This document shows positions 16,826-61,369 of a stretch of DNA of 64,000 bases, piece by piece. The stretch is from an uncultured Planctomycetales bacterium. GTDB lineage: Bacteria > Omnitrophota > Gorgyraeia > Zapsychrales > JAHFFX01. The position numbers and the translations under genes were made by a program. Under the pieces are notes generated by a model that had not been told where the DNA came from, ran no database searches, and worked only from the letters and a program-made list of their open reading frames with translations. The first letter of the stretch is position 1. The number at the start of each line of letters is the position of its first letter. The stretch spans positions 100,305 through 164,304 of the forward strand of contig CAYJRN010000001.1 in NCBI GenBank assembly GCA_964372915.1, read 5' to 3'.

Positions 16826-16960
16826 TTGATATATTAAATTATTAACCTTTTCTTCCTTAAAGCCGTAAATTTTTTTCCAGTCTCAAGGAGAGAAAAGGTA
16901 ATATTGACTTCCATATACGGCGCTAATAGCGGAAAGGTCAATAGTGAGAATATCGTATCA
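16826..16960. repeat. Dispersed leader repeat, family R2, copy A (immediately 5' of the pfp RBS)
   Basis: ttattaaccttttcttccttaaa...gagagaaaaggtaatattgacttccatatacggcgctaatagcggaaaggtcaata. Near-identical copies lie at 43528-43650, 50095-50170 (partial) and 52328-52510. Confidence 0.7.
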
Positions 16961-24289: not shown

Positions 24290-24295
24290 CGATTG

Positions 24296-24475
24296 TTCCT
24301 CTAAACAGGGTTTTCTTAAGAGAACAATCGTCGCCCCTGTTTTCCTTAAAATATATTCAGAGGAAACTGGGGCAGTCCTCGCTTCTTCTAAAAAATTTTC
24401 AAAGGAAAGCGAGGGCGAGATACTGACTACCACAAATGCTATTGGTAAAGAAAAGGTCAGTAAACACTATTTTCA
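24296..24475. repeat. Dispersed intergenic repeat, family R1, copy 2 (5' leader of lysC)
   Basis: ttgacgattgttcctctaaacagggttttcttaagagaacaatcgtcg ... gagatactgac...ggtcagta, with an ~80-bp insertion relative to copy 1. Confidence 0.65.
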
Positions 24476-39224: not shown

Positions 39225-39292
39225 TACAGGCCTCCGCATAAGTAACGCCAATATTTTCCTGTATTATTATCAAAGAGCGGAGGCCAGTACTG
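39225..39292. repeat. Family R1 hairpin module (aGGCCTCCGcataa...CGGAGGCCagtac), third copy
   Basis: The same arms and flanks as 4307-4372, in the same + orientation, although the neighbouring gene here is on the - strand. Confidence 0.55.
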
Positions 39293-43527: not shown

Positions 43528-43650
43528 AATGAACTATTAACCTTTTCTTCCTTAAAACCATAAGCTTTTCTCCAACTTTGAGGTTTGAGGAGAGAAAAAG
43601 TAATATTGACTTCCATATACGGCGTTAATAGTAGAAAGGTCAATAATATC
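43528..43650. repeat. Family R2 leader repeat, copy B (5' of the GAF gene)
   Basis: ctattaaccttttcttccttaaaaccataagcttttctcc...gagagaaaaagtaatattgacttccatatacggcgttaatagtagaaaggtcaata. Confidence 0.7.
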
Positions 43651-47257: not shown

Positions 47258-49375
47258 TCATCCGTAAACAACGGCAGAATTTTTATAGCCGGCTTGCCTT
47301 AAGGCTTTGCTTGTGGTCGGCCCTTTACTTAAAATCCGCCAGCCTGGGGGGATGGATCCATAATCCGCCAAAAAATTTTTAACCGTCGAAGGACTGGTAA
47401 AAAATATGGCATCGATTTCTTTAAGCGGCAAATCTTTTTTCCCGGGCTTAGTATTCTTGTAAATAGTCAGCTCCGTCACGTCCGCTCCGCGTTTAGTCAA
47501 TTCATTTTTAAGAAATGGATTGGGAAGCGAAGACCTTGGGAAAAGGATTTTCTTATCCTTAAGATTATACTTTTTAATCAGCTCTTCCAACAACCCTGCG
47601 CTCGTTTGAACGGCCGCAACAACCTTAGGCGTGACGCTGTGTTTTTTTAAAGCTGCGGCCGTCCCCTCGCCGATGACCGCAAAGTCAAACCTTAGAAGAT
47701 TGGCCAAATCCCCAGCGCTTCTTTTCAAAAATTCAAAAAAATGTTGGACAGCGTAAGGGCTGGTCAAAAGGATCAGGTCATACTTCTGTAACCTGTTGAC
47801 GATTCTTTGCGAGGTCCTGCGATCAACTTTCACGCTGGAAATCTTGATCAGCGGAAAATGAACGATGTGTCCCAGGGAACGGTACCTCTTAGGATGTGTT
47901 CCCAAATAAAGGATGTGATGATTGGGGAAAAGATTTCTCTCGCGCCCTTCGCGACCTCTCATTTCTACAACCGGCGGAACAATCGGGCGGCGCGAGAACT
48001 TAACCGTTTCTCCCACAATAATAAGAGCCGGCGGTTCAAGCTTATGTTCCAAAACAATCTTTTCAATATCAGCAATGCAGCCGGAAACGATTTTTTCTTG
48101 AAGAGTTGTGCCTTTGGAAACCACCATAACCGAAGCTTGAGAGCTCCAGCCGTTGCTCAAAAGTGACTTCACAATGATATTGAGTTTCGTGAGTCCCATT
48201 AAGAATACAATCGTATCGGCCGACGGGATCTTGACCTGTTTGGGATTCGCGCGGTCTTCGGCCTCTTCATGACCGCTGACAAACGCCACGGAGGAAGCCA
48301 CGCCCCGGGCGGTCAAAGGAATCCCTAACCCCGACGGAATTCCGGTCGCTGAACTGACTCCCGGAACGACTTCCACCTCAATGAAAAAAGAGCGCAGGTA
48401 ACCGAGCTCCTCCGCCCCGCGGCCAAAGATCAAAGGATCGCCGCCTTTTAGGCGCACCACATTCTTCCCGGCCATGGCCTTTTCTTTGAGCATCCGGGAA
48501 AGCTCCTCTTGCGGCAAGGCATGCTCTCCCTTTCTTTTACCGACGTAAATTTTTTGAGCTTTCTTGGCGTACCGCAAAAGCCTTTGATCAATCAGATAAT
48601 CATAAAAAACACAATCGGCGTGTTTCAAGGCGTTGATACCCTTGAGGGTGATGAGATCCGGGTCTCCGGGGCCGGCGCCGACAAGGGAAACCTTTCCATA
48701 GGTTTTACAAACATCAATAGCGGAGACTTTCGCCATCAAAATCCTATCGGCCGTACGGCCCACCACTGCCAACTGCCCTTGCAAAGGACTTGCCTCCCAC
48801 GGCATAATTTCGGTAATCAAATGCTCTAAGCCCAAACGTTTTAAAGCACAGGCGGCCACAATAAGCCCCTCAACAACACCGTGATCTAAAAGCGCCAGCC
48901 GTTCTTCAATCGTCCCGCGTACATCCACAAGTTGAACACCCGGATTCACGGCTTTCACGGCCCGCTGCCTTAAAAGACTGCTCGCCCCTACTTTCGCCCC
49001 GGCGGCCAATTGTGACAATTTCTTTTTTCCCACAAAGGCATCGGTCTTATCCAGCGCGGCAGTTAAAGCGAAAAGGCTCAAATCCGCTCTTAAGACCTCC
49101 GGCAAATCCTTGGCACTGTGAACCGCCAAGTCAATTTCGCCTTTTAAAAGCGCCTCATCCAAAGTATCGGTAAAGAAATCATCCGCCGGGCTCAAAGAAA
49201 GTGGCGTTGTTTTATCCCTATCCCCTTTCGTTTGATAAACCACGTGTTCGAAAATGAGTTTGACGCCCTTAGCCTTCAAAAAAGACAAAACTTCCTTGAC
49301 CTGCAGACAAGCCAGATGGCTGTCGCGCGATCCGATTTTGACAATCTTGGAGAGATTGATAAGGCCAGGACGCAT
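47258..49375 (-). CDS. Fusion protein: HemC-like N-terminal domain + uroporphyrinogen-III C-methyltransferase (CobA/SUMT) + uroporphyrinogen-III synthase (HemD)
   Basis: HemC-like part: KIGSRDSHLACLQ...GASSLLRQRAV...PLQGQLAVVG. SUMT part: GKVSLVGAGPGDPDLITLKG...VVRLKGGDPLIFGRG...VPGVSSA. C-terminal HemD part: ~245 aa. I place the start at the internal ATG 49375, because the 49504 start would overlap the upstream gene. Confidence 0.7.
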   Translation of the reverse strand: MRPGLINLSKIVKIGSRDSHLACLQVKEVLSFLKAKGVKLIFEHVVYQTKGDRDKTTPLSLSPADDFFTDTLDEALLKGEIDLAVHSAKDLPEVLRADLSLFALTAALDKTDAFVGKKKLSQLAAGAKVGASSLLRQRAVKAVNPGVQLVDVRGTIEERLALLDHGVVEGLIVAACALKRLGLEHLITEIMPWEASPLQGQLAVVGRTADRILMAKVSAIDVCKTYGKVSLVGAGPGDPDLITLKGINALKHADCVFYDYLIDQRLLRYAKKAQKIYVGKRKGEHALPQEELSRMLKEKAMAGKNVVRLKGGDPLIFGRGAEELGYLRSFFIEVEVVPGVSSATGIPSGLGIPLTARGVASSVAFVSGHEEAEDRANPKQVKIPSADTIVFLMGLTKLNIIVKSLLSNGWSSQASVMVVSKGTTLQEKIVSGCIADIEKIVLEHKLEPPALIIVGETVKFSRRPIVPPVVEMRGREGRERNLFPNHHILYLGTHPKRYRSLGHIVHFPLIKISSVKVDRRTSQRIVNRLQKYDLILLTSPYAVQHFFEFLKRSAGDLANLLRFDFAVIGEGTAAALKKHSVTPKVVAAVQTSAGLLEELIKKYNLKDKKILFPRSSLPNPFLKNELTKRGADVTELTIYKNTKPGKKDLPLKEIDAIFFTSPSTVKNFLADYGSIPPGWRILSKGPTTSKALRQAGYKNSAVVYG

Positions 49376-49397
49376 TGGGAAGGCTTTAAAATAGATT

Positions 49398-50081
49398 TTA
49401 CGCCTGCTCTGCTTTAGCAGGGATGGGTTCATGTGTACAACCGCGATGAGCGCAAAAAAGAGGAAAGGCGATGCCGCTGGCACAGCAAGGGACCATGACG
49501 GCAAAAACTACAATGATAAGAACTATTCCTAGGGAATGGATCCAATCCTGGACCCCAAAGGCCGTGAGATAAAGAATCGCCGAGAGACTGCTAAAAAGCA
49601 CATGGCCTGAATGCGAATACTCCGTGGATTTTTCAATGGCGCCCGGAATAAGAAAGCCCGTAATGACGCCCATCATCGCGAAAGGAACAACGATCCCGGG
49701 ATGTTCAATAAGGCAGATATGAACGGCCATATCCCCGTGGAGCAAAAAACGTCCGCCCAGATAAGGGAAGACGGCATCGCTCAAACCGCACACCACCAAC
49801 GACCCGCAGAATCCGACGAAAACGGCCTTTAAGAACCTCTTCTCATGTTTCCAGAACATGGCGGTCGTTGTCACCGCACTCAATAAAATATGACTCGCGT
49901 GAGAGACATGAAAGAATTCGCGAGCGGCATCTGCCAGAGAATCTTCCGCCCGCATCAGTATAGCGAAAAAGGTAAAAATCCCCATGAGCATGAGTCCCAT
50001 GGTAACCCCAAAGATGGTATAGGGAAGATGATGCCCCAGTTCCAGCAGAATATAGTTGAGTTTACTGTCCTTGCTGTTCAT
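49398..50081 (-). CDS. His-rich polytopic membrane protein, first gene of the heme-branch operon; function unknown
   Basis: Six hydrophobic helices with conserved-looking His/Cys (GHHLPYT, HVSHASH, HGDMAVHICLIEHPG). No confident family call. Confidence 0.35.
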   Translation of the reverse strand: MNSKDSKLNYILLELGHHLPYTIFGVTMGLMLMGIFTFFAILMRAEDSLADAAREFFHVSHASHILLSAVTTTAMFWKHEKRFLKAVFVGFCGSLVVCGLSDAVFPYLGGRFLLHGDMAVHICLIEHPGIVVPFAMMGVITGFLIPGAIEKSTEYSHSGHVLFSSLSAILYLTAFGVQDWIHSLGIVLIIVVFAVMVPCCASGIAFPLFCAHRGCTHEPIPAKAEQA

Positions 50082-50094
50082 TGACGCTCTTTTT

Positions 50095-50170
50095 GATTAT
50101 TAACCTTTTCTTCCTTAAAACCGTAAGCTCTTCTCCAGCTTTAGAGAGAGAAATTGAAATAATGGTGTCT
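50095..50170. repeat. Family R2 leader repeat, copy C (partial; 5' of the His-rich membrane protein gene)
   Basis: attattaaccttttcttccttaaaaccgtaagctcttctccag, then divergent. Confidence 0.6.
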
Positions 50171-50241: not shown

Positions 50242-52326
50242 TTATTCCGCGATGAGTTTTTTAATTTCCGGCAGGGCTTTATAAGCGGCTTCTTCTCCGG
50301 CTCTTAAGAGCTTGTTGACTTGATAAAGCTCAAACCAATTAATGCCGGAAAGATCGGGATGGATGATGATGTCGGCCTGAAGGGCGCTTTGCTGGGCGAT
50401 GACATATTCAGTAGCCTGGAGCGTACGCACGATAATATCAGGGATGTTCGGCCAGAACACCCTGTAAAAAAATCTATTGATCCGAAAGCTCAGGTATTGT
50501 CGCGGCGATTTCAAAAATGGGATTTTCTCTTCTTCCTGGGCTTTTGCCCTGGCGAGCTCGTAGCCCTTCGCCACATCCACGGGCGACTGCAAGACATTGA
50601 CGGCAATGATCTTCTTGATGCCTAAAGCGGTCAGGACATTGGTCGGCAAAGGATTTAAAACGCCCCCATCGATGATGAGCCGATTTTTCTGCAAGACCGG
50701 TTTAATAACGCCCGGAATGGAAACACTTTTACGAACGGCATCAACCAGCTGTCCCTCTGAAATCACCAGCTCCTCCCGGTGCAAAAGGTCATAGGCTATG
50801 ACTTTTAAAGGAAAACGCGTGGAATGGAAGGTTTTATTCCCTAAATGTTTCTTAAGCCAACGCTCAATGCCCCGGCCTGACACAAAACCGGCTTTTGAAA
50901 TGACCAGATCAACGATCTTCCCCATTGCCTTTTTGCTTTCGAATTCTCGGGCTATTGTTTCCAGCTCATCGGCATTATTGCCAACGGCCCAAAGACTGGC
51001 GAGCAGAGCGCCCATACTGCTGCCAACGACGACATCGATAGGAATTTTTTCCTTTTCAAGAACGCGAATGACCCCAATATGGGCCACCCCCAAAGCCGCG
51101 CCGCCGCCTAAAACCAATCCCACGAGGACCCCTCCCACCCGACGGGCCAGTTGGGTCAGGGTCTTTGCGTATTCGCTCTGGGGGCTCGGCGTCAAAACCG
51201 TCATCAGATTTGAAACAACCGGTTGATTCAATTCGCCCGGGCTGATAAAAGGCAGCACGGCTGTGACTTGATAGTCGAGGACTTTGTTGACTTCTTCAAA
51301 GGAAAGATAACACTGGAGCTTAAGGCCACTGGTCAGCACCTGCACTTTTTCTTTATCGAAGTTTCCCTTTAGGACTCCTTTAAGCCTTTTGATGACATGC
51401 CCCGCCAGAAGTAAATCCTCTTTCTGATCGATGGTAATCAAATAAACATAGTCCGACTGCGTCAAGGTCTCCAGAACGACATCGTCCATATCATTGGGAA
51501 GGTCCACGACGACATAATGGTACTCATTGGCGAGGCTGCTGATAAATGTGCTGATCTGCCGAACTATTCTTTCATTTTGCGGGTTGATGAAGACGTTCAA
51601 GAGATCGACTTCGATATCGGCCTTGGTAATAGCCTGAGCGATTTTTTGATAATCCCCCACGATATCTTCGAGGTTAACGGCCGCCTTTTTCCATCGAGGA
51701 GTCGCGTCCGTCTTTTGAGAATTTTCTGTAGAAAACACATGCGGGCCGTTAGAGATGCTGACAAAAATAATTTTCCGAGTGGTTTCTTTCGCCAAAGCCA
51801 GAGCCAGGTTGACGGCGAACGTGGAGCTCCCCGAGCCTTTCACCGGACTGTACACGGAAATGACGGTGCTTTCGAAAATGGATTTGGAACGAACCACCTG
51901 ACTGCGGACCCGGCGGGAAAGACTACGGCTGAATTCAATGCCAAGATGGGGAATACTTTTGAGGATATTGAGAAAATCATCCTTGTTGATTTTAAGGATC
52001 ACGGAATCGTTGAGGGCCTCAAAGGTCAAAGAATGCTCTTCCCCGGTCAAAAGCGAGATGATCCCGAAATGCATTCCGCGCAAGAGAAGCTCAACGTTTT
52101 CTTTGCTACCGTTGGGGCGGGTCTTGTAAGCCTGCAGACGTCCCGAGACCAGGCAATACAGAGCATCCGGGGGCGCCCCCTCCCGGGAGATGATCTCGCC
52201 TTTTTTATATTCCGCAAAACTGCATTTGGCGGCAACCGCGTGCAACTCAAACCAATTCAATTTGCTGAAAATGGGTATTTGCTTGACGACGGAATATTTA
52301 TGAGTGATTTGTAAAAAAGAGGACAT
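50242..52326 (-). CDS. Three-domain protein: cyclic-nucleotide-binding domain + degenerate ParA/CpaE-like domain + patatin-like phospholipase
   Basis: N-terminal cNMP motifs (FAEYKKGEIISREGAPPDALYCLVSGRL). Middle domain: VISVYSPVKGSGSSTFAVNLALAL with a non-canonical P-loop, plus YVVVDLPND. C-terminal patatin motifs: GLVLGGGAALG...GSSMGAL (GxSxG), with the catalytic Asp further on. Confidence 0.72.
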   Translation of the reverse strand: MSSFLQITHKYSVVKQIPIFSKLNWFELHAVAAKCSFAEYKKGEIISREGAPPDALYCLVSGRLQAYKTRPNGSKENVELLLRGMHFGIISLLTGEEHSLTFEALNDSVILKINKDDFLNILKSIPHLGIEFSRSLSRRVRSQVVRSKSIFESTVISVYSPVKGSGSSTFAVNLALALAKETTRKIIFVSISNGPHVFSTENSQKTDATPRWKKAAVNLEDIVGDYQKIAQAITKADIEVDLLNVFINPQNERIVRQISTFISSLANEYHYVVVDLPNDMDDVVLETLTQSDYVYLITIDQKEDLLLAGHVIKRLKGVLKGNFDKEKVQVLTSGLKLQCYLSFEEVNKVLDYQVTAVLPFISPGELNQPVVSNLMTVLTPSPQSEYAKTLTQLARRVGGVLVGLVLGGGAALGVAHIGVIRVLEKEKIPIDVVVGSSMGALLASLWAVGNNADELETIAREFESKKAMGKIVDLVISKAGFVSGRGIERWLKKHLGNKTFHSTRFPLKVIAYDLLHREELVISEGQLVDAVRKSVSIPGVIKPVLQKNRLIIDGGVLNPLPTNVLTALGIKKIIAVNVLQSPVDVAKGYELARAKAQEEEKIPFLKSPRQYLSFRINRFFYRVFWPNIPDIIVRTLQATEYVIAQQSALQADIIIHPDLSGINWFELYQVNKLLRAGEEAAYKALPEIKKLIAE

Positions 52327-52327: not shown

Positions 52328-52510
52328 ATTTATTAACCTTTTCTTCCTTAAAACCGTAAGCTTTTCTCCAGCCGCCAGAAGAGAAAAGGTAATACATGGC
52401 TTCCCTAGAAACATATTGTGGAAGCCAGTACTGCCTTCCATAAATTCCTTTTTTGAGAGAAGGCATGTATTGACTTCCACATACGGCGCTAATAGTGGAG
52501 AGATCAATAA
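52328..52510. repeat. Family R2 leader repeat, copy D, with a nested R1-type hairpin insertion (GGCTTCC...GGAAGCCagtac)
   Basis: atttattaaccttttcttccttaaaaccgtaagcttttctccag ... (insertion) ... gtattgacttccacatacggcgctaatagtggagagatcaata. Confidence 0.65.
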
Positions 52511-52513: not shown

Positions 52514-54358
52514 CTATTTGATGATATCGTTCTCAAGCCAGATGAACTCATCGAGCAGGACTTTTTTAGCGACCTGTAAATTGTCTTTTTCAGTCGAATT
52601 GCCTTCATATTTGAAATGCTCTTCGATGCGTTGACGCGCTTGTTGACAAAAAAGATCGGCAAGCTCCAAAGCATTCGCCTGCCCTTTTTTTATCAAATGG
52701 TCGGCGTAGGTACAAACCGAAGAGATGGCAAAAAGCTCGCACCCTATATCGACAACGCGGTTGAGAACGCTTTGCCGGCTTTCCAATTTTTTCTGATAAC
52801 GCAGCATCTGATGAAAGATATTCCTGGCCAAATGTCGAGAGGCAGAAGCGGCATAAGTCATGTGACGAGCCAAGGGTTGAGGCAGATCGTAATGAGGAAA
52901 GGATGGCAGCCATAGTTTTGGATACCAGGTCGCGTAATAAACGGCCGCCGCCCAAAAGGCTTTCAATTTCTCGCCGCCGGAAGTCCTTGAGCTTAAAAAA
53001 ACCTTGCCGCGCGAAAGATGCGGGTCCAGCGCTTCGCGGGCAATGAAAAGATGCATAATCTCCGAAGTTCCTTCAATGATAAGATTGATGCGAACATCGC
53101 GCATCACCCTCTCCACGGGCCAATAATCCGCGCCGCGGCCCTTCAGCGATGAAGACTGTTCATATCCCGAGCCGCCGCGGATCTGCAAAGTCTCGTCGAC
53201 AATCTTCCAACTGTGCAGCGTGCAGAAATATTTGGCGATCGCCGCCTCAAGACGAATATCTTTTTTCTTATCATCGGCCATGGCGGAGGTAAGCCAGTTC
53301 ATGGCATCCATCGCGAAGGTGTGGCTGGCGATAGTACCGATCTTGAGCGCAATACTTTCGTGTTCGCCGATCGCGGCTCCCCATTGTTTGCGTTTCTTGG
53401 ACCACTGACGGGCGACGTACAGACACCATTTCGAAATTCCCGTTGAGGCAGCCGGAAGCGTGAGTCTGCCCGTATTGAGCGTCATCAAGGCAAGCCTTAA
53501 CCCTTCTCCTTCGCCGAGGATAATATTCTCCCTGGGGACTTTCACGTTTTTAAAACGGATGAGCCCATTTTGGATGCCGTGCAAACCCATGAACTGGCAA
53601 CGGTGCACAATTTCAAAGCCCGGAGAATTGGTTTCGACAATAAAAGCCGTGATTTGTTTTTGTTCTTTGCCGTGAATGATTTTGGGAGGGGTCACGGCCA
53701 TGACGACAATAACGCCCGCCACCGGGCCGTTGGTACACCAGAGTTTTTCTCCGTTAATGAGGAAAGATTTGCCGTCTTCGGTTGGGATGGCGGTGGTTGT
53801 CATCTGACGAGGGTCTGACCCCGCCTCTAACTCAGTCAAGGCAAAGGCGGAAATCACCCCATCGCCGAACATCGGTAGATATTTATGTTTTTGCTGGGGG
53901 GAACCAAAAAGTTTCAAAGGCTGCGGGACGCCAATACTTTGATGAGCGGATAACAGAACGGCCGTGGAGCCGCAGTAGCTCGCCACTAGATGAATGGCGC
54001 GGTTGTAATTGATTTGACTAAAGCCCAGGCCTCCGTATTCTTTGGGGATCTTGATGGCAAAGGCCTTAAGACTCCCTAGACCCTTATAAACTTTTTCCGG
54101 GATAAGACCGGTGCGATCCACTTCATCGGGGTCAAGGTTTTCTCTTAAAAAAGCTTCAAGTTTTTTAAGATACACATCACCGGCCCGGCGATCGTCGGCG
54201 GGTTGTTCGGGGAACGGGTGAATGAGCGGCCAATCGATAATGCCGTGAAAAAGTTTTAAGGCAAAACTGGGATACTTCCATTCGGTTTCCCTGGATGCCT
54301 CGGCGAATTCCAAGGATTCTCTTTTCTCGGCGCTGATATTCTTGTCGAACATGCTCAT
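52514..54358 (-). CDS. Long-form acyl-CoA dehydrogenase (FadE/AidB-like, 614 aa)
   Basis: ACAD N, middle and C domains, plus an extended C-terminal region. Confidence 0.78.
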   Translation of the reverse strand: MSMFDKNISAEKRESLEFAEASRETEWKYPSFALKLFHGIIDWPLIHPFPEQPADDRRAGDVYLKKLEAFLRENLDPDEVDRTGLIPEKVYKGLGSLKAFAIKIPKEYGGLGFSQINYNRAIHLVASYCGSTAVLLSAHQSIGVPQPLKLFGSPQQKHKYLPMFGDGVISAFALTELEAGSDPRQMTTTAIPTEDGKSFLINGEKLWCTNGPVAGVIVVMAVTPPKIIHGKEQKQITAFIVETNSPGFEIVHRCQFMGLHGIQNGLIRFKNVKVPRENIILGEGEGLRLALMTLNTGRLTLPAASTGISKWCLYVARQWSKKRKQWGAAIGEHESIALKIGTIASHTFAMDAMNWLTSAMADDKKKDIRLEAAIAKYFCTLHSWKIVDETLQIRGGSGYEQSSSLKGRGADYWPVERVMRDVRINLIIEGTSEIMHLFIAREALDPHLSRGKVFLSSRTSGGEKLKAFWAAAVYYATWYPKLWLPSFPHYDLPQPLARHMTYAASASRHLARNIFHQMLRYQKKLESRQSVLNRVVDIGCELFAISSVCTYADHLIKKGQANALELADLFCQQARQRIEEHFKYEGNSTEKDNLQVAKKVLLDEFIWLENDIIK

Positions 54359-54414: not shown

Positions 54415-54705
54415 CTACTCTTTCTTTAAATACTGTTGGGCGAGCTGCGGCACATCTTCTATTCTCACGCCGCTGTGCCAAACGTCATCAGGATAACTCA
54501 TGATGTTGACGCCTAGGCTGCATTGGCCTAAACATTTGGCTTGGGCCACACGCACTTTGGGGTGAAGCCCTCGTTCTTTGGCAATCCGACGGAACTCTTT
54601 AAAGACGGCCTCGGCTTGATGATCGCCACAGCTGGGGCTTTCTCCTTTGCGGTCATTGGTGCAGACGAAGATCTGTTTTTGGAAAGGAACCTTGTCGGTT
54701 TTCAT
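54415..54705 (-). CDS. Thioredoxin-like [2Fe-2S] ferredoxin
   Basis: 96 aa; CTNDRKGESPSCGDH...CLGQCSLGVNIM fits the thioredoxin-like Fdx cysteine pattern (C..C...C..C). Confidence 0.55.
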   Translation of the reverse strand: MKTDKVPFQKQIFVCTNDRKGESPSCGDHQAEAVFKEFRRIAKERGLHPKVRVAQAKCLGQCSLGVNIMSYPDDVWHSGVRIEDVPQLAQQYLKKE

Positions 54706-56374: not shown

Positions 56375-58519
56375 TCAGCTCTTAAAAAACTTCTCGTTTT
56401 TCTCATTTAAGATTAAAAGATAGCGGCAGGGCTTAAATCGCTCGGCCTGCAGCTCAAGGGCCAAGCGTTCCAAATCCTCAACGACGTTCTTAATACCAAC
56501 ACGATCCGCGTAACGCAGAAGCCCGCCGCGAAACGGCGGAAAACCCGTACCCATTATCATCCCGATATCCACCGCGCCCGGATCATCGACGATTTCTTCC
56601 TCCAGACATCGTGCCGCTTCGTTGATCATCACGTACATCATTCGCTTAAGACTCTCCTGGGAATCGAATCGGCGCCGGTTTTTGACAGCTACCAAAGGAC
56701 CAATCATCGGATTGACGGAACGATTCCGGCCGTAAAGATAAAAACCTTTGCCTGATTTTTTGCCCAAAAGCTTTGCCTCAAAAACGCGCTCAAACGTTTC
56801 AACGGCCTTGAATCGGACTCCCAGGCCATGTTCAAGAATATGCAAGACCTTGAGCCCTACGTCTAAGCCCACCTCATCACTTAACGCCAAAGGCCCCATC
56901 GGCATCCCGAAAGCCGTCACTACTTGATCAATGGTTTGAATGGCGGCTCCCTCCTCCAGCAGATGTCCCGCCTCGTTCATATAGGCAAGAAGAATTCTGT
57001 TGACCAAAAACCCACAGGAATCTTTGACGAGAATCGGTGTTTTTCCTAAAAGCTTGACGAGAAACAGCGTCAAAGCAATCGTTTCTTTAGAAGTTACCTC
57101 GGTCTTGATGACTTCAATCAAAGGCATCCGGTGGACGGGATTGAAAAAATGCAGACCGATGACCTGGGAGGGATCGCGCGTCTCTCGGGCCATCTCGGTG
57201 ACGGAGAGTGCCGAGGTGTTTGTGCACAGAATGGTATCCGCGCTGACAACACCGCTTAGTTCGTGAAAAATTTTTTTCTTAACCTCCCTATTCTCAACAA
57301 CCGCCTCGATCACAACGTCCGCATTCTTGAATCCGCTGTAGTCAAGAGTCGCGGTGATCGCGGACATCCTCACATTGGCCTGCGCCTGGGTCAAACGTTT
57401 TTTCTGCACGGCTTGGCTGGTGATTTTACTCGCCGCCTTCAAGCCTTGCGCGATCGCCTCATAATGAACATCCTTCAAGCGAACACGAATACCGTTGTCA
57501 CTCAACAACTGTGCGATGCCCCCTCCCATGACCCCCGCTCCCAATACGGCAGCCTTGCGAATTTTCTTCAAGGGAAGATTCTCGGTGCCGGGGAAGGTCA
57601 GTTTCTTATATTTCTCCGAGAGATAAAACACTTTGACCAAATTTTTTGAAACCTCCGTGATGACCATTTCACTAAAACCTTTGGCTTCCAGATCCAGAGC
57701 TTGCTGACGGGGACGGCCGTAAGCCTTTTGCATGACCTCAAGCGCTTTTAAAGGCGCCGGATAAAACCCTTGAGCGGCCTGCAGAATCGACTTGCGGGAT
57801 TCGCTAAAAAGAAGCCTGCGGCCGATGGAAAAATCCTCAAGAAGCTTTTGCCGAAGATTCTCTTTGGGCTTTTGAGGAAGTCTGTTTTCCTTAATATCTT
57901 TCAAAAATTGGCGCAACTGACTCTCGATCCCTTTTTGCGGCACCAAACGGTCAACGAGCCCCATCTTCAGAGCTTCCTGGCTCGAAACAACTTTGCAGGT
58001 GACGATCATCCGGATGCCCCGTTCCAGCCCCACAACTTTCGGCAGGCGGTATGTGCCGCCGAACCCGGGAATGATGCCTAGGTTCACTTCCGGCAGTCCG
58101 ATTCTTACCTTTTCACTGAAGGTCGCGACGCGGTAACGGCAGGCGAGCGCCAATTCGCAGCCTCCTCCCAACGCCGCGCCGTCAATCACGGCCACCGTCG
58201 GGATGGAAAGATCCTCGAGTTTATTGAAAATCCTTTGTCCGGCCCTGGATTTACCTTCGCCATCCTCACGGGTCACGATCCCATCGATCTCTTTGATGTC
58301 CGCTCCGGCAATGAAGATGTCTTTTTTCTTGCTGACAAAAAAAACGGCTTTTAGAGACGCGTTGTTTTTCACTTGATCGAGAGTTTCCTCCAATCGCTTT
58401 AAAACCTCCGAGGTCAGGATATTGACCTTGGCCTCAGGGTGATCGAACTCGATGGTGCCGATGTTATCGTCTTTGTAAAAATTAACGGACATTGTTATTT
58501 CGCTTACACCTATTGTCAT
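56375..58519 (-). CDS. fadB: Fatty-acid oxidation complex alpha subunit (enoyl-CoA hydratase / 3-hydroxyacyl-CoA dehydrogenase)
   Basis: Crotonase N-domain and 3HCDH Rossmann (AAVLGAGVMGGGIA). I place the start at the ATG (58519) overlapping the fadA stop (ATGA). Confidence 0.85.
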   Translation of the reverse strand: MTIGVSEITMSVNFYKDDNIGTIEFDHPEAKVNILTSEVLKRLEETLDQVKNNASLKAVFFVSKKKDIFIAGADIKEIDGIVTREDGEGKSRAGQRIFNKLEDLSIPTVAVIDGAALGGGCELALACRYRVATFSEKVRIGLPEVNLGIIPGFGGTYRLPKVVGLERGIRMIVTCKVVSSQEALKMGLVDRLVPQKGIESQLRQFLKDIKENRLPQKPKENLRQKLLEDFSIGRRLLFSESRKSILQAAQGFYPAPLKALEVMQKAYGRPRQQALDLEAKGFSEMVITEVSKNLVKVFYLSEKYKKLTFPGTENLPLKKIRKAAVLGAGVMGGGIAQLLSDNGIRVRLKDVHYEAIAQGLKAASKITSQAVQKKRLTQAQANVRMSAITATLDYSGFKNADVVIEAVVENREVKKKIFHELSGVVSADTILCTNTSALSVTEMARETRDPSQVIGLHFFNPVHRMPLIEVIKTEVTSKETIALTLFLVKLLGKTPILVKDSCGFLVNRILLAYMNEAGHLLEEGAAIQTIDQVVTAFGMPMGPLALSDEVGLDVGLKVLHILEHGLGVRFKAVETFERVFEAKLLGKKSGKGFYLYGRNRSVNPMIGPLVAVKNRRRFDSQESLKRMMYVMINEAARCLEEEIVDDPGAVDIGMIMGTGFPPFRGGLLRYADRVGIKNVVEDLERLALELQAERFKPCRYLLILNEKNEKFFKS

Positions 58520-59790
58520 CTCTCCACGATCGCCGCCGCCCCTTGCCCGCCGCCGACGCACAAGGAAATGAGACCCACGTTGAGATTTTTTCTTTTGAGA
58601 TGTTTGAGCATCGTCAAGATAAGGCGCGAGCCGCTCGCCCCTACGGGATGACCCAGCGCAATCGCTCCTCCGTTCACGTTCAAAATGCCGCGGTCAATGG
58701 GGCCTGCGTATCCTTCGTAACCAAACTCGCGGGCGAATTCATTGGAATCCAGAGACCGCAGGACGGCGAGCACCTGCGCGGCAAACGCTTCATTGATCTC
58801 GATGGCCTGCATCTGTCTTAAACTCATTCCCGATTTTTTAAGGACTTTGGGAATCGCGTGCGCCGGGCCGATTCCCATCCGCGCGGGCTCCACCCCGGCA
58901 AACGCGAAGGCTTTTAAATATCCCAAGGGTTCCAATCCCAATTCGCGAGCGCGCCCCTCCGAGGTGACCAAAAGCGCCGCCGCTCCATCGGTCACCTGAC
59001 TGGAATTGCCGGCCGTTACCGTACCACTGTATTTGTCAAAAATGGGCTTAAGTTTAGCCAAAGCCTCCAGCGTTTGATTCTCGCGCGGGCCGTTGTCGAA
59101 CTCGACGACTTGTTTGAATTTGGGGGAGGGAATAACCGGAACAATTTCTTCTTGAAGTACCGCTCGTCCCCTCATGGCCCGTTGATGGCTCATCAAAGCA
59201 AATTCATCCTGTTCTTCTCTGCTGATTCCGAACTCCTTGGCCAAAACTTCCGCGGTCTGGCCCATATTCAATCCGCAGACGGGATCGGTGAGTCCCAAGT
59301 TGAGCCCAATCCGAGGAGAAAAATGTTTCGGCCGCAATCGGATGATGGCTTGAAATTTTTCCAGCACCGATTTGGCGCGGTTGACTTTGGTCAAAATTTC
59401 CTGCAAGTCTTTGCTTAAAAAAAATGGAATGTTGCTCATCGATTCCGTCCCGCCGGCCAAGAGGCATTGCGCTTCGCCGGCCTGAATCCGCAGAGCCGCC
59501 GTGACCAGGGATTCAAGGCCCGAGGCGCAATTACGGTTCACCGTAAAGGCCGGCGTTGTTTTGGGAATTCCGCTCAACAAGGCAATGACTCTGGAAATAT
59601 TAGCCGCGTCCGGCGGCTGCGCGACGTTCCCGAAGATGACCTCATCGATATTTTGAGGCTCAAGGCCGGTGCGCTCCAAAAGTTCACGGGTGGCCGCGAC
59701 CGCCAGTTCCTGCGCGCTCATATCGTTAAAAAGCGTCCCCATTTTGCAGAAGGGAGTTCGTATGCCGTCGACAATCACGATGCGTTCCAT
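58516..59790 (-). CDS. fadA: Acetyl-CoA C-acyltransferase (3-ketoacyl-CoA thiolase)
   Basis: Thiolase N- and C-domains with the active-site Cys region (NRNCASGLE) and C-terminal GLISLCVGGGQGAA. Confidence 0.9.
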   Translation of the reverse strand: MERIVIVDGIRTPFCKMGTLFNDMSAQELAVAATRELLERTGLEPQNIDEVIFGNVAQPPDAANISRVIALLSGIPKTTPAFTVNRNCASGLESLVTAALRIQAGEAQCLLAGGTESMSNIPFFLSKDLQEILTKVNRAKSVLEKFQAIIRLRPKHFSPRIGLNLGLTDPVCGLNMGQTAEVLAKEFGISREEQDEFALMSHQRAMRGRAVLQEEIVPVIPSPKFKQVVEFDNGPRENQTLEALAKLKPIFDKYSGTVTAGNSSQVTDGAAALLVTSEGRARELGLEPLGYLKAFAFAGVEPARMGIGPAHAIPKVLKKSGMSLRQMQAIEINEAFAAQVLAVLRSLDSNEFAREFGYEGYAGPIDRGILNVNGGAIALGHPVGASGSRLILTMLKHLKRKNLNVGLISLCVGGGQGAAAIVER

Positions 59791-59800
59791 AGTCGTATCT

Positions 59801-59870
59801 CCTCAGCGGTAAGCGTATAGCGGTTAGCGGATAGTACAACAAAAAGAATTAATTCACTGACCGCTATTCG
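59801..59870. promoter_or_regulatory. Imperfect 19-bp inverted repeat (AGCGGTAAGCGTATAGCGG ... CCGCTATTCGCTGTCCGCT) upstream of fadA
   Basis: 16 of 19 positions complementary with a 32-nt spacer, in the fadA promoter region. Confidence 0.35.
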
Positions 59871-59884
59871 CTGTCCGCTGTACG

Positions 59885-61369
59885 CTATTTCGGCCTCGTG
59901 TCCAAAATCCTTTTCTCTTTATTCGCCGTCTCCAAATCAAGGCGTTTGACAAGTTCATCCAGAGGCAAGAAGACGATGCCGTTGGGCGCGACTTCTGTCC
60001 CTATCTTGATTTTATTGCGGACATCCGACTCCAGCTTCAGGCGATCCGCGTCCGGTTTGGAAGCAATATAAACAACCAGCTCATCAACCTCATGGGGATC
60101 ATTGTTTTTCTTCCGGATTTCGATCTGCCATTCCACAATCGAACCAAAATCATTCAAGATGGCGGCAAAGTCATTAAGATTGACCAGAGACCCTTTGATC
60201 TTGGAAAGTTGCAGGCCTTGAATATCGGAAATGCGCGTGATGTCACTCGAGAGTCTCGCGACGGTACGCCCACAGTAGGAACAAGGCGCGTAAGAGACCC
60301 CGCCTTTCAGGTAATCCCCCGTGCGGTAACGGACGACCACAGAACAGCGGGAATTCAAAGCTGTGTAAACGATCTCGCCGTCCTGGCCTTCGCCTTTCAC
60401 CTCGCCGGTCTTAGGATCGATGATCTCAATGATCTCTTGATCCGGATAAAGATGATAGCCGCTGGAGATTCCGGGCTTCGTGGGGCATTCGGCCCACGCG
60501 GCGCGCGCTTCGGTAAAACCATAGGTTCCAAACACTGAAACGCCGGTGGCTCCCATAGATTTTAGAAGCTCGATGATCTTTTCCTTAAATCCTTCCGTGA
60601 CCCGGGCCGCCCCCAGAACGATTTTCTTCACGTACTCCATTCGGCAGCCTTTTTCCTGCGCGAGTCTCAAGACGTGATAGACGTAACTGGGAACACCCAA
60701 AATCACCGACGGTCTCATCCGCACAATAGCCGAAATGTTCCCTTCCGTTCCCATCACCTTCCCGCCGCCGGAGCTAAAGATCATGACACAGGAGGAAAGT
60801 CCGCCAAAAACCACTTGCCAGAAAGCCAGGTGCGGGGCGTACGGGAAGATGTTCATCACGCGCTCATCGTTCTTGATTTCAAAAAGGCTGAGCATTCTGG
60901 AACCAGAGAGATGAAGGTTCTGCATGTCATGGTGGCTGTAAAGAAAGGACACCGGCTTATTGGTGGTGCCGGTGGTGAAGGTGATGAAACATGGCCGATA
61001 CTGTCGGGACAATTTCTCCTGAGCTTCGGCTCTTCCCAAGATAACGGAATCAGTCAACAAACCCAGTTTCTTCTCAATGGGCCAGAACCGCGTGATCTTT
61101 TCCTGATCCGGCTGCAGGACAAATTCCTTGAATTTTTCGGGATGTGCGGGGGTGGCGATAAAATCGTTTTTGCTGGTGAAAGGAATGTGTTTCAGATCTT
61201 CGACGGTACGAATGTCGCGAGGATGAATCTTGTGATCATCGAAAAGCTTGCGGTAATAAGGACTGAAGGGATAAACTTCTTCATTGATAAACTCACGGAG
61301 CTTTCTATTTTGTAAAGCACGAATCTCTTCTTTGTTAAGACCTGCCAGTGTTCCCCATGGATCCAGCAT
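59885..61369 (-). CDS. Adenylate-forming enzyme of the phenylacetate-CoA ligase (PaaK) / coenzyme F390 synthetase family
   Basis: 494 aa; N-terminal LQNRKLREFI, AMP-binding core TSGTTNKP-like (TTGTTNKP) and the family hinge region. Confidence 0.65.
   Translation of the reverse strand: MLDPWGTLAGLNKEEIRALQNRKLREFINEEVYPFSPYYRKLFDDHKIHPRDIRTVEDLKHIPFTSKNDFIATPAHPEKFKEFVLQPDQEKITRFWPIEKKLGLLTDSVILGRAEAQEKLSRQYRPCFITFTTGTTNKPVSFLYSHHDMQNLHLSGSRMLSLFEIKNDERVMNIFPYAPHLAFWQVVFGGLSSCVMIFSSGGGKVMGTEGNISAIVRMRPSVILGVPSYVYHVLRLAQEKGCRMEYVKKIVLGAARVTEGFKEKIIELLKSMGATGVSVFGTYGFTEARAAWAECPTKPGISSGYHLYPDQEIIEIIDPKTGEVKGEGQDGEIVYTALNSRCSVVVRYRTGDYLKGGVSYAPCSYCGRTVARLSSDITRISDIQGLQLSKIKGSLVNLNDFAAILNDFGSIVEWQIEIRKKNNDPHEVDELVVYIASKPDADRLKLESDVRNKIKIGTEVAPNGIVFLPLDELVKRLDLETANKEKRILDTRPK

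What the first reader, a model, noticed from the sequence alone, without database searches (positions are those of the whole stretch)
50242..52326. Unusual cNMP-binding / pseudo-ParA / patatin three-domain protein with an R2 leader
The N-terminal cyclic-nucleotide-binding domain and C-terminal patatin phospholipase domain (GxGxxG ... GSSMG) are clear. Between them is a ~250-aa MinD/ParA/CpaE-like domain whose P-loop reads KGSGSST rather than KGGxGKT, suggesting a non-catalytic nucleotide-binding or scaffold role. Nucleotide-gated patatin phospholipases are known as effectors in cyclic-oligonucleotide immune signalling and in NTE-type lipid homeostasis. This architecture adds a third domain and sits behind the shared R2 leader.
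Basis: partly seen in the sequence, partly recalled or inferred. Interest (0 to 1): 0.6.

Follow-up and report, generated by a model that had tools for sequence, protein, structure and literature searches.

The report
NTE-type regulated phospholipase of Omnitrophota
This gene encodes a bacterial relative of neuropathy target esterase: a lipid-cleaving enzyme with two built-in regulatory domains. It is conserved across the uncultured phylum Omnitrophota, sits beside fatty-acid-burning genes, and suggests that the poorly understood middle domain of this enzyme family derives from a cell-division-type ATPase.

Summary
Window 50242-52326 (minus strand) encodes a 694-aa protein with three domains: a cyclic-nucleotide-binding (CNB) fold, a ~250-aa MinD/ParA/CpaE-type fold whose P-loop reads VKGSGSST, and a patatin domain with an intact Ser437/Asp553 dyad. 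The "R2" repeat upstream is also real.

The architecture is less unusual than proposed. Pfam already defines PF24179, "NTE family P-loop like domain", between the CNB and patatin domains of ordinary bacterial NTE-family proteins. Profile-profile comparisons link that domain, CpaE-like ATPases and this middle domain.

The window's protein belongs to a large family (at least 290 species genomes, essentially all Omnitrophota, plus Lindowbacteria and Hydrogenedentota). This family keeps a full-size, sequence-recognisable ParA-like domain. Distant members often retain GK[ST]. This clade has lost the Walker lysine and the Switch-I aspartate. It has also replaced the cNMP-contacting Glu and Arg of the CNB cassette with Ile and His.

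Neighbours are β-oxidation and glycerol/glycerophosphodiester genes, in different gene orders in different lineages. No cyclase or CD-NTase is nearby.

Most likely function: a cytoplasmic, allosterically controlled (lyso)phospholipase that feeds fatty acids into β-oxidation, not an immune effector. R2 is a lineage-specific intergenic insertion. Novelty: new variant of a known kind; moderate interest.

The parts
50242..52326 (-). Complete ORF of 694 aa: CNB / ParA-like pseudo-ATPase / patatin protein.
   Evidence: ORF listing. Pfam domains. 120 full-length homologs at 53-70% identity. AlphaFold model with pLDDT 85.4 and pTM 0.79.
51889..52293 (-). CNB-fold sensor domain, residues ~12-146 including the C-terminal helix 126-145.
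   Evidence: Pfam cNMP_binding E 4e-21. PDB profile and Foldseek hits to PKA-R, PKG and CRP-family CNB domains.
52024..52077 (-). Non-canonical phosphate-binding cassette, residues 84-101 (GMHFGIISLLTGEEHSLT). Ile89 replaces the canonical Glu and His98 replaces the canonical Arg.
   Evidence: Column counts: I/V at 89; His at 98 in 119 of 120 homologs. Explicit alignment to the cassettes of Plasmodium PKA-R/PKG chains and a Toxoplasma protein (FGE...RAAT / R[ST]AT). Ordinary NTE_Ploop-type proteins mostly keep GE...PR[ST]A.
51127..51873 (-). MinD/ParA/CpaE-type (SIMIBI) domain, residues ~152-400, predicted to be catalytically dead.
   Evidence: Pfam AAA_31 31.1 bits. 3ea0 at E 1e-9. All 50 best Foldseek hits are MinD/ParA/NifH-type and related SIMIBI NTPases. 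hhalign against a CpaE-like profile gives E 2e-37.
51817..51852 (-). Degenerate P-loop, residues 159-170 (YSPVKGSGSSTF). Ser167 occupies the Walker-A Lys position and Val162 the signature-Lys position.
   Evidence: Alignment to the 3ea0 P-loop KGGDGGS. Family column counts. Comparison with canonical CpaE-like KGGxGK[ST] and with distant three-domain members that keep GK[ST] or GR[ST].
50251..51123 (-). Patatin-like phospholipase domain (RssA/PlpD-like), residues ~402-692. Oxyanion loop GGGAALG (407-413). Nucleophile Ser437 (51016-51018). Asp553 (50668-50670).
   Evidence: Pfam Patatin E 1e-31. NCBIfam RssA model covered 5-297 of 301, below its cutoff. PlpD alignment of GxSxG and DGG. Foldseek 5fya E 5e-18, TM 0.84. 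Invariant columns.
52330..52394 (-). R2 repeat copy: a hairpin-forming ~65-nt element ending 4 nt before the ATG.
   Evidence: Pattern search: 4 copies against 0 expected. Repeat family D1. Alignment. RNA fold -20.3 kcal/mol, z -2.2.
52452..52509 (-). Promoter-like repeat D2 (TATTGAyC...TATrTG...GTCAATA). It lies upstream of R2, directly after the ACAD stop codon.
   Evidence: Repeat family D2 with 3 copies. Alignment A1. It was not called by the strict sigma-70 scan, so promoter function is an inference.
50097..50161 (-). Second R2 copy, a degenerate hairpin, upstream of the 227-aa membrane-protein gene that follows the target.
   Evidence: Fold -14.6 kcal/mol, z -0.6.
52514..54358 (-). Acyl-CoA dehydrogenase (ACAD9/VLCAD-like, 614 aa), immediately upstream. 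This is the conserved operon partner.
   Evidence: Pfam. Found immediately upstream on the same strand in 53 of 79 related loci. The gap is about 6-10 bp in the nearest relatives.
56375..61369 (-). β-oxidation genes further upstream on the same strand: FadB-like ECH+3HCDH (56375-58561), thiolase (58516-59790) and an AMP-binding acyl-CoA-synthetase-like gene (59885-61369).
   Evidence: Pfam. The same functions lie next to distant family members in other gene orders.

Best explanation
The gene encodes a cytoplasmic, allosterically controlled patatin-type (lyso)phospholipase or phospholipase B with the NTE-family layout: sensor, P-loop-like domain, patatin.

**Shown**
- The patatin domain has a complete catalytic apparatus: a Gly-rich oxyanion loop, Ser437 and Asp553.
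- The middle domain has a MinD/ParA/CpaE fold. It lacks the Walker-A lysine, the signature lysine and the Switch-I aspartate.
- The CNB fold lacks the canonical Glu/Arg cNMP contacts.
- The gene is vertically conserved across Omnitrophota. It is repeatedly linked, in different gene orders, to acyl-CoA synthetase, thiolase, enoyl-CoA hydratase/3-hydroxyacyl-CoA dehydrogenase, acyl-CoA dehydrogenase, ETF, glycerol kinase and glycerophosphodiesterase genes.

**Inferred**
- The enzyme deacylates glycerophospholipids or lysophospholipids.
- The fatty acids it releases are activated and β-oxidised. The glycerophosphodiester or glycerol backbone is handled by GDPD and glycerol kinase where those genes are present.
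- The ParA-derived domain no longer hydrolyses ATP. It serves as a dimerisation or scaffold module that transmits the state of the N-terminal sensor, through the long helix 126-145, to the lipase. This keeps a potentially self-destructive cytoplasmic lipase off until a ligand is bound.
- That ligand may not be cAMP or cGMP.
For: - **Domains and motifs:**
- **Fold:**
- **Family size and taxonomy:** 711 homologs, with the top 120 all full length. At least 290 confirmed genomic loci; the best 79 are labelled Omnitrophota or given placeholder labels ('uncultured Planctomycetales', 'bacterium'), apart from one Lysobacterales-labelled short contig. Members also occur in Lindowbacteria and Hydrogenedentota.
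- **Context in close relatives:** ACAD lies immediately upstream in 53 of 79 loci and FadB-like genes occur in 24. 56 of 86 loci have at least one lipid-catabolic gene within about 6-8 kb.
- **Context in distant members, with different gene orders:**
  - PLP-FadD-thiolase-FadB-ACAD (Lindowbacteria)
  - FGGY-GDPD-PLP-3HCDH-ECH-ETFβα-FadD-α/β-hydrolase
  - FGGY-PLP-thiolase-3HCDH-ECH-FadD-α/β-hydrolase
  - PLP-FadD
- **Cytoplasmic location:** no transmembrane segment was found. No signal peptide is evident by inspection; no predictor was run.
- **NTE layout:** PF24179 NTE_Ploop sits between CNB and patatin in the next-nearest relatives. hhalign links it to CpaE-like domains (E 2.4e-7) and to this middle domain (E 9e-5 to 3e-6), while reversed controls give E >= 0.07.
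- **NTE/PNPLA6 biochemistry:** PC or LPC is hydrolysed to glycerophosphocholine plus fatty acid (PMC9025805).
Against: - No biochemical data exist for any member. Substrate and ligand are inferred only.
- About 30 of 86 loci show no lipid-catabolic gene within the flanks. Some of these are short contigs, but about 18 have full flanks.
- Within the main Omnitrophota clade, adjacency to ACAD could partly be inherited gene order. The same block also carries a tRNA/rRNA methyltransferase and haem-biosynthesis genes.
- The strongly conserved G-[ST]-G-S-S-T loop (G166 in 120 of 120, S168 in 119 of 120) argues that the loop still binds something. "Pure scaffold" may therefore be too simple.
- The hhalign link between the middle domain and NTE_Ploop is only moderate (probability 52-75%).
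- Dimerisation could not be modelled.
Confidence: 0.6

Rival explanations
1. Housekeeping membrane-lipid homeostasis enzyme, as in NTE/PNPLA6. It would deacylate the cell's own phosphatidylcholine-like or other phospholipids, or lysolipids, for turnover and remodelling. The link to β-oxidation genes would be conserved gene order rather than a dedicated catabolic pathway.
For: - The NTE-type layout.
- Phylum-wide, apparently vertical conservation at 53-70% identity.
- In the main clade the same syntenic block also holds unrelated housekeeping genes: a TrmA/RlmD-like methyltransferase and hemC/D, hemB and hemL.
- About a third of loci lack lipid-catabolic neighbours.
Against: Independent, differently ordered operons with FadD, thiolase, FadB, ACAD, ETF, GDPD and glycerol kinase occur in distant members and other phyla. 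These are hard to explain by inherited order alone. The two roles are not mutually exclusive.
Confidence: 0.25
2. The middle domain is still a working nucleotide-dependent switch. It would bind ATP or another phosphorylated ligand through the conserved Gly/Ser/Thr loop. Nucleotide-dependent dimerisation, or MinD-like membrane or pole targeting, would then turn the lipase on.
For: - The G-x-G-S-S-T loop, the Walker-B Asp275 and Asp292 are strongly conserved.
- Distant members keep GK[ST] or GR[ST] and one Switch-I Asp.
- The closest solved relative, 3ea0, also lacks the Walker Lys: its loop is KGGDGGS.
Against: - The Walker-A Lys, the signature Lys and the Switch-I Asp are all missing in this clade.
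- In several distant members the loop has decayed completely, for example FSEDALDQGQLY and VQLSSETNNIRF. The family as a whole therefore does not need it.
- The highest amphipathic-moment helices found include no obvious C-terminal membrane-targeting helix of the MinD type.
Confidence: 0.12
3. Anti-phage abortive-infection effector, Pycsar- or CBASS-like. A cyclic nucleotide made by a dedicated cyclase on infection would bind the CNB domain and unleash the phospholipase on the cell membrane.
For: - CNB-effector fusions are the logic of Pycsar, and patatin lipases (CapV, CapE) are CBASS effectors.
- There are weak PADLOC hits to models of TIR-type effectors (residues 30-143, E 8e-7 to 9e-5) and to CBASS phospholipases (E 1e-4).
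- Foldseek hits to CapV and CapE at E about 1e-11.
Against: - The 43 window ORFs put through Pfam, which include every gene within about 10 kb on the surveyed side, contain no cyclase or CD-NTase. Six ORFs returned no Pfam family and three further listed ORFs were not scanned. The only nucleotide cyclase found is a housekeeping CdaA 42 kb away.
- None was found in six other neighbourhoods.
- The gene sits in a conserved core synteny block across at least 79 genomes, not in a variable defence island.
- The canonical cNMP contacts are absent.
- NCBIfam CBASS_lipase scores 14 bits against a cutoff of 200.
Confidence: 0.03

Closest known systems
NTE family: eukaryotic PNPLA6/NTE and PNPLA7, and bacterial 'NTE family' proteins with the Pfam architecture cNMP_binding + NTE_Ploop (PF24179) + Patatin
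   Same: - Same domain order: CNB sensor, then a P-loop-like domain, then a patatin esterase with a Ser-Asp dyad.
- The P-loop-like domain is related by profile comparison.
- The expected chemistry of NTE, deacylation of (lyso)phospholipid to glycerophosphodiester plus fatty acid, fits the GDPD, glycerol-kinase, FadD and β-oxidation neighbours.
   Different: - The middle domain here is full size (~250 aa against ~150-185 aa). It scores as AAA_31/ParA and not as PF24179.
- There is a single CNB domain whose cassette has His/Ile instead of Arg/Glu. Most bacterial NTE_Ploop proteins keep Arg/Glu.
- There is no transmembrane anchor.
- Distribution is almost confined to Omnitrophota.
CpaE/TadZ-type and other MinD/ParA (SIMIBI) ATPases; closest solved structure is PDB 3ea0 (Chlorobium tepidum 'ParA family ATPase')
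   Same: - Same fold: all 50 best Foldseek hits belong to this class.
- hhalign against a CpaE-like profile gives E 2e-37.
- The Walker-B strand hhhhD-L-P and the following 'QSD' strand are conserved.
- 3ea0 likewise lacks the Walker Lys: its loop is KGGDGGS.
   Different: - There is no KGGxGK[ST] motif. Ser occupies the Walker-Lys position, the signature Lys is missing or displaced, and the Switch-I Asp is replaced by Ser or Asn.
- The domain is embedded between a CNB and a lipase domain instead of following a receiver-like domain.
- It shows no association with pilus, flagellar, division or partition genes.
RssA/YchK and PlpD patatin-like phospholipases
   Same: The C-terminal 290 aa align end to end with the RssA model (5-297 of 301). 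They also align with the PlpD structure (TM 0.84, 26% identity).
   Different: - The score of 115 bits is far below the RssA equivalog cutoff of 272.
- RssA is a stand-alone domain, and PlpD is a secreted type-Vd passenger.
- The oxyanion-loop Arg (GGAARG) is Leu here (GGAALG).
CBASS CapV/CapE phospholipases and Pycsar CNB-effector fusions
   Same: A patatin fold activated by a nucleotide signal (CapV/CapE), and a CNB domain fused to a membrane-damaging effector (Pycsar).
   Different: No partner cyclase, core-genome synteny, degenerate cNMP contacts and only weak partial HMM hits.

Membership tests
NTE family (CNB + P-loop-like + patatin) | Patatin domain with a GxSxG serine and a DG[GA] aspartate dyad. 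| tested here: met
   G435-S-S437-M-G and D553-G-G align to PlpD GTSMG and DGG. They are invariant in 53 homologs.
NTE family (CNB + P-loop-like + patatin) | One or more CNB-fold domains N-terminal to the esterase. | tested here: met
   Pfam cNMP_binding E 4e-21, residues 39-123. Structural hits to CRP, PKA-R and PKG CNB domains.
NTE family (CNB + P-loop-like + patatin) | An NTE_Ploop (PF24179) domain between CNB and patatin. | tested here: inconclusive
   There is no PF24179 hit at E <= 1. A domain of the same position and fold class is present. hhalign of the middle domain against NTE_Ploop segments gives E 9e-5 to 3e-6 (probability 52-75%). CpaE-like against NTE_Ploop gives E 2.4e-7 (probability 93%). 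Reversed controls give E >= 0.07.
NTE family (CNB + P-loop-like + patatin) | Lysophospholipase / phospholipase B activity. | not testable with these tools
   Only genomic context supports it.
MinD/ParA/CpaE deviant-Walker-A ATPases | Deviant Walker A motif KGGxGK[ST], with both the signature Lys and the catalytic Lys. | tested here: not met
   The motif reads V162-K-G-S-G-S167-S-T. Position 167 is Ser in 106 of 120 homologs. This rests on an ungapped alignment to canonical relatives.
MinD/ParA/CpaE deviant-Walker-A ATPases | Switch-I aspartate(s) after strand β2. | tested here: not met
   The segment reads IIFVSIS (family consensus VIFVNI.S). Distant members have VILLDMS or VVVVDLS.
MinD/ParA/CpaE deviant-Walker-A ATPases | SIMIBI fold with a Walker-B hhhhD strand. 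| tested here: met
   Foldseek. VVVD275LP is conserved in 117 of 120 homologs.
Canonical cAMP/cGMP-binding CNB domains | Phosphate-binding cassette FGE...R[ST]A, with Glu contacting the ribose 2'-OH and Arg contacting the phosphate. | tested here: not met
   F87-G-I89 ... H98-S-L. His98 is present in 119 of 120 homologs. Shown by alignment to the cassettes of Plasmodium PKA-R/PKG chains.
CBASS / Pycsar defence effectors | Genetic linkage to a CD-NTase or a pyrimidine cyclase. | tested here: not met
   None among the 43 window ORFs scanned with Pfam; six of these returned no family and three further listed ORFs were not scanned. None in six other neighbourhoods. Immediate neighbours in 79 loci are ACAD, a methyltransferase and hem genes.
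CBASS / Pycsar defence effectors | A match to curated effector models. | tested here: not met
   NCBIfam CBASS_lipase scores 14.2 bits against a cutoff of 200. PADLOC hits are partial, E 1e-4 to 8e-7.
RssA/YchK (NCBIfam PRK10279 equivalog) | A score above the curated equivalog cutoff. | tested here: not met
   114.9 bits against a cutoff of 272, although model coverage is full.

The most novel reading that the evidence does not exclude
This Omnitrophota, Lindowbacteria and Hydrogenedentota family may be a surviving evolutionary intermediate. It would show that the unexplained "P-loop-like" region of NTE-family esterases began as a CpaE/ParA-type dimerising ATPase fused to a CNB sensor. By Pfam's naming, which was not tested here, that includes human PNPLA6/NTE. 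Two-domain CNB+ParA proteins with canonical motifs still exist, for example P0218.

Members that retain GK[ST] would then be ATP- and ligand-gated phospholipases. Dimerisation through the ParA-derived domain would be the general, still unknown, regulatory mechanism of NTE-type lipases. In Omnitrophota the His-containing cassette would sense a non-cNMP metabolite that couples lipid mobilisation to β-oxidation. These bacteria are ultra-small and predicted to be host-dependent, so the lipid may be host-derived.
Probability: 0.3. Interest if true: 0.6.

Novelty: new variant of a known kind. Interest (0 to 1): 0.4.

Why it matters
**For NTE biology.** NTE/PNPLA6 is a human disease gene. Its regulation by its non-catalytic domains is poorly understood, and reviews leave the region between the CNB domains and the esterase unannotated (PMC9025805). 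A bacterial family in which that region is still a recognisable MinD/ParA-type domain gives a concrete, testable hypothesis. Members run from near-canonical to fully degenerate P-loops. The hypothesis is that the domain is a dimerisation or nucleotide-switch module, and a soluble bacterial model is available for testing it.

**For Omnitrophota biology.** A phylum-wide, tightly regulated cytoplasmic phospholipase embedded in β-oxidation operons points to lipid mobilisation as a core trait of these uncultured, ultra-small bacteria. The main genomic surveys do not mention it.

**For annotation.** "cNMP-binding" should not be read as "cAMP-regulated" here.

Tried and rejected
- **Defence-effector reading.** Rejected after PADLOC and NCBIfam scans, Pfam annotation of 43 window ORFs including all immediate neighbours and six further neighbourhoods showed no cyclase or CD-NTase.
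- **"R2 is a family-specific leader or riboswitch".** Rejected for four reasons.
  - Rfam gathering-threshold scans found only a cobalamin riboswitch and tRNAs in the window.
  - R2 is absent from 0.9 Mb of related loci, allowing up to 5 mismatches.
  - It has no exact match in JGI metagenome contigs.
  - The closest relatives have a spacer of only about 6-10 bp where the window has 187 bp.
- **First hhalign run.** With a shallow 20-sequence profile it gave only a 51-column match (E 0.02). It was superseded by a 72-sequence profile with controls.
- **Literature.** Searches for Omnitrophota + patatin, patatin + CNB + ParA, and NTE + P-loop found no description of this architecture.
- **Source record.** The lookup for the window's own protein returned only a 2.3-kb Logan contig, so the source genome was not identified beyond Omnitrophota-like relatives.
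- **Model coordinates.** No multimer prediction was possible.
Full report
**1. Observation**

The ORF at 50242-52326 on the minus strand is real and complete: ATG start, 694 aa.

Pfam finds three domains:
- cNMP_binding at residues 39-123 (E 4e-21).
- AAA_31 at residues 154-309 (31.1 bits, cutoff 27), with a weak ParA hit.
- Patatin at residues 404-565 (E 1e-31).

NCBIfam aligns residues 401-692 with the whole RssA model (5-297 of 301). The score of 115 bits is far below the equivalog cutoff of 272.

An AlphaFold model built with 53 homologs is confident (pLDDT 85.4, pTM 0.79). Its Foldseek hits fall into three groups:
- PlpD, CapV, CapE and patatin for the C-terminal domain.
- CRP, PKA-R and PKG CNB domains for the N-terminal domain.
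- The ParA-family structure 3ea0 for the middle domain.

A separate model of residues 146-402 has pLDDT 85.7 and pTM 0.87. Its 50 best PDB hits are all MinD, ParA, Soj, FlhG, FleN, NifH and related SIMIBI-class P-loop NTPases.

**2. State of the three domains**

*Patatin.* Ser437 (in G-S-S-M-G) and Asp553 (in D-G-G) align with GTSMG and DGG of the solved PlpD. They are invariant in 53 homologs. The enzyme is predicted to be active. The Arg of the oxyanion loop (GGAARG in PlpD) is Leu here.

*Middle domain.* In an ungapped alignment with 3ea0 and with canonical CpaE-like relatives (KGGxGK[ST]):
- Val162 falls on the signature lysine.
- Ser167 falls on the Walker-A lysine.

Across 120 close homologs the loop is Y-S-P-V-(K)-G-[TS]-G-S-S-T. 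Gly166 is present in 120 of 120, Ser167 in 106 of 120 and Ser168 in 119 of 120. The Switch-I aspartate is also gone: IIFVSIS here, against VILLDMS in distant members. The Walker-B Asp275 and Asp292 are retained.

This is therefore a pseudo-ATPase by sequence. Its Gly/Ser/Thr loop is nevertheless under strong constraint.

*CNB domain.* Alignment with Plasmodium PKA-R and PKG cassettes places Ile89 on the conserved Glu and His98 on the conserved Arg. His98 is present in 119 of 120 homologs. These are the two canonical contacts to the cyclic nucleotide (established knowledge of CNB domains). Binding of cAMP or cGMP in the usual way is therefore doubtful.

**3. The family and its distribution**

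The full-length protein has 711 homologs at E <= 1e-5. The 120 best are all 671-716 aa and 53-70% identical, and where named they are Omnitrophota.

Of the best 79, all are labelled Omnitrophota or given placeholder labels ('uncultured Planctomycetales', 'bacterium') except one 4.4-kb contig labelled Lysobacterales.

A search of 1.8 billion cluster representatives with the middle domain alone found about 50 further clusters with the same three-domain layout, down to about 21% identity. After these come CpaE/TadZ-like proteins of ~380-430 aa with canonical P-loops. Distant members occur in Lindowbacteria and Hydrogenedentota.

In these distant members the P-loop takes one of two forms:
- It often still reads x-K-G-x-G-K/R-[ST].
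- It has decayed completely.

The G-S-S-T state of this window is thus a fixed, clade-specific derivative.

**4. The third domain is not an addition: it is the NTE layout**

The next-nearest relatives of the family are ~600-750-aa proteins from Planctomycetota, Alphaproteobacteria, Anaerolineae and others. Their precomputed architecture is PF00027 + PF24179 + PF01734. PF24179 is [quoted passage not shown], and it lies between CNB and patatin.

The window's protein does not hit PF24179. Profile-profile comparison gives the following:

| Comparison | E-value | Probability |
|---|---|---|
| Middle-domain profile (72 sequences) vs 58 NTE_Ploop segments, global, collinear end to end | 3e-6 | 75% |
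| Same comparison, local | 1.5e-4 | 52% |
| Same comparison, local, after trimming the linker shared with the patatin domain | 9e-5 | 60% |
| CpaE-like profile vs NTE_Ploop | 2.4e-7 | 93% |
| CpaE-like profile vs the middle domain | 2e-37 | 99.9% |
| Reversed-profile controls | 0.07-0.6 | below 1% |

I conclude, as an inference with moderate support, that NTE_Ploop is a shortened, fully degenerate ParA/CpaE-type domain. The Omnitrophota family carries the least degenerate version.

Most NTE_Ploop-type proteins keep the canonical GE...PR[ST]A cassette. The His/Ile cassette is therefore a further peculiarity of this clade. Two-domain CNB+ParA proteins with canonical motifs and no lipase also exist (P0218), as does a REC+CNB+AAA_31 protein (P0210).

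**5. Genomic context**

On the minus strand, in transcription order, the window reads:
1. AcrB-like
2. DUF2231
3. AMP-binding (FadD-like)
4. Thiolase
5. FadB-like (ECH+3HCDH)
6. PsbP-like
7. TrmA/RlmD-like methyltransferase
8. A 96-aa Cys-rich protein
9. Acyl-CoA dehydrogenase (ACAD)
10. The target
11. A 227-aa membrane protein
12. HemC-CobA-HemD fusion
13. HemB
14. HemL

In 53 of 79 related loci the ACAD gene lies immediately upstream on the same strand. In the two closest relatives the gap is about 6-10 bp.

More tellingly, distant members sit in differently ordered operons of the same pathway:
- PLP-FadD-thiolase-FadB-ACAD in Lindowbacteria.
- Glycerol kinase-GDPD-PLP-3HCDH-ECH-ETFβ-ETFα-FadD-α/β-hydrolase.
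- Glycerol kinase-PLP-thiolase-3HCDH-ECH-FadD-α/β-hydrolase.
- PLP-FadD.

Overall, 56 of 86 loci carry at least one such gene within the flanks. The 43 window ORFs put through Pfam include no class III cyclase, CD-NTase or pyrimidine cyclase. Six of them returned no Pfam family, and three further listed ORFs were not scanned. The only nucleotide cyclase found is a CdaA-type diadenylate cyclase at 7293-8063, 42 kb away on the other strand.

**6. Mechanism proposed**

NTE/PNPLA6 deacylates PC or LPC to glycerophosphocholine and fatty acid (PMC9025805). The operon partners found here are exactly those needed to consume such products:
- GDPD and glycerol kinase for the backbone.
- FadD, ACAD, ECH/3HCDH, thiolase and ETF for the acyl chains.

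I therefore propose a cytoplasmic NTE-type (lyso)phospholipase that feeds β-oxidation. No transmembrane segment was found, and no signal peptide is evident by inspection, though no predictor was run. A cytoplasmic lipase must be kept silent. The two N-terminal domains would do this in three steps:
- The CNB fold binds a ligand, possibly not a cyclic nucleotide.
- Its C-terminal helix (126-145) couples to the ParA-derived domain.
- The ParA-derived domain, by analogy with ParA/MinD dimers, sets the oligomeric state or the orientation of the lipase domains.

These steps are inferred, not shown.

Three rivals are scored in the report:
- Pure membrane homeostasis.
- A still-functional nucleotide switch in the middle domain.
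- A defence effector, which is essentially excluded.

**7. The R2 leader**

The 33-nt core occurs four times, all on the minus strand, against 0 expected. The copies end 26, 22, 16 and 4 nt before the start codons of four genes:
- A phosphofructokinase gene (16813).
- A PocR/GAF regulator gene (43512).
- The 227-aa membrane-protein gene (50081).
- The target (52326).

Three copies are preceded by a second repeat with a promoter-like TTGACC...TATATG. R2 is the loop and 3' arm of a long imperfect hairpin (-20 to -24 kcal/mol, z -2.2 to -3.2 in three copies). Its 3' arm is the purine-rich AAGGAAGAAAAGG.

Several results show it is not part of the family:
- It is not in Rfam at gathering thresholds.
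- It is absent from all 79 related loci.
- It is absent from JGI metagenome contigs.
- It occupies a spacer that does not exist in the closest relatives.

It is a lineage-specific intergenic insertion. It may supply a promoter and a structured 5' leader in this genome, which would uncouple the lipase gene from the ACAD gene. It says nothing about the protein family.

**8. Verdict**

The protein is a new variant of a known kind. It is an NTE-family-type CNB / P-loop-like / patatin lipase, and four features set it apart:
- Phylum-wide conservation in Omnitrophota.
- A full-size ParA-like pseudo-ATPase domain.
- A non-canonical CNB cassette.
- A conserved link to β-oxidation.

No paper in the searchable library describes it. 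Interest is moderate at 0.4. Its main value is as a window on the origin and possible mechanism of the NTE P-loop-like domain, and as a marker of lipid catabolism in Omnitrophota.

Noticed in passing
window 16839-16943, 43534-43645, 50097-50161, 52330-52509 (all minus strand): A composite, lineage-specific intergenic repeat. It consists of a promoter-like module (TATTGACC-N18-TATATG...GTCAATA, family D2) followed by a hairpin module (R2, family D1). It sits directly upstream of four unrelated genes: PFK, a PocR/GAF regulator, a 227-aa membrane protein and the patatin gene. The ends resemble an 8-bp inverted repeat (TATTGACC / GGTTAATA). It could be a MITE-like element or a portable promoter and leader cassette.
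   Followed up: partly
window 4186-4291 and 24284-24473 (+ strand): A second pair of repeated intergenic elements (families D7/D8, 76-90% identical). These also begin with TATTGAC. They lie upstream of the FtsH gene (4387) and the aspartate kinase gene (24498). This suggests that TATTGAC marks a shared -35-type promoter element in this genome. Nearby repeats D10/D14 (4309-4372 and 39225-39290) were not examined.
   Followed up: no
window 47258-49504 (-): A triple-fusion tetrapyrrole enzyme: porphobilinogen deaminase (HemC) + uroporphyrinogen-III C-methyltransferase (TP_methylase/CobA) + uroporphyrinogen-III synthase (HemD) in one 748-aa ORF. It is conserved downstream of the patatin gene in 49 of 79 related loci. 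The listed TTG start overlaps the preceding gene, so the true start is probably about 40 codons downstream.
   Followed up: no
window 54415-54705 (-): A 96-aa Cys-rich protein with no Pfam hit. It is conserved between the methyltransferase and ACAD genes in 36 related loci. It may be a small redox or ferredoxin-like partner of the acyl-CoA dehydrogenase.
   Followed up: no
window 49398-50081 (-): A 227-aa multi-pass membrane protein with no Pfam family, located directly downstream of the patatin gene. It is found in only 12 of 79 related loci and carries its own R2 copy.
   Followed up: no
window 7293-8063 (+): A CdaA-type diadenylate cyclase (DAC domain plus the CdaA N-terminal transmembrane domain). 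It is the only nucleotide cyclase found among the window ORFs scanned with Pfam, and c-di-AMP signalling is therefore present in this organism.
   Followed up: no
window 11061-11261 (+): A cobalamin riboswitch (Rfam RF00174, 74.6 bits) upstream of a cobalamin-independent methionine synthase (MetE, listed as 11196-13535). The listed GTG start overlaps the riboswitch, so the true start is likely downstream. A TonB-dependent receptor gene follows (13535-15532).
   Followed up: no
window 1704-1850 (+): Three 35-nt direct repeats spaced 55-57 nt apart, immediately upstream of and overlapping the start of a tRNA gene (1840-1912).
   Followed up: no
L045 and L052 (same MAG, CAYNSM01 contigs 13 and 79): Two full-length copies of the three-domain gene (51% and 50% identity to the query) in one metagenome-assembled genome. 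This could be paralogy or mixed binning.
   Followed up: no
Proteins P0218 (425 aa) and P0210 (524 aa): CNB + ParA-like proteins without a lipase domain. P0218 has a canonical KGGAGKST P-loop and a canonical PR-S-A cassette. P0210 adds an N-terminal receiver domain. They are possible representatives of the ancestral regulatory module that was fused to a patatin domain.
   Followed up: partly
window residues ~604-624 of the target (approx. 50455-50517, minus strand): A conserved aromatic/basic helix (F604, P608, [FLW]609, [YF]611, F614, R615, R618, K622, F624) in the C-terminal extension of the patatin domain. It is a candidate interfacial membrane- or lipid-binding element.
   Followed up: partly
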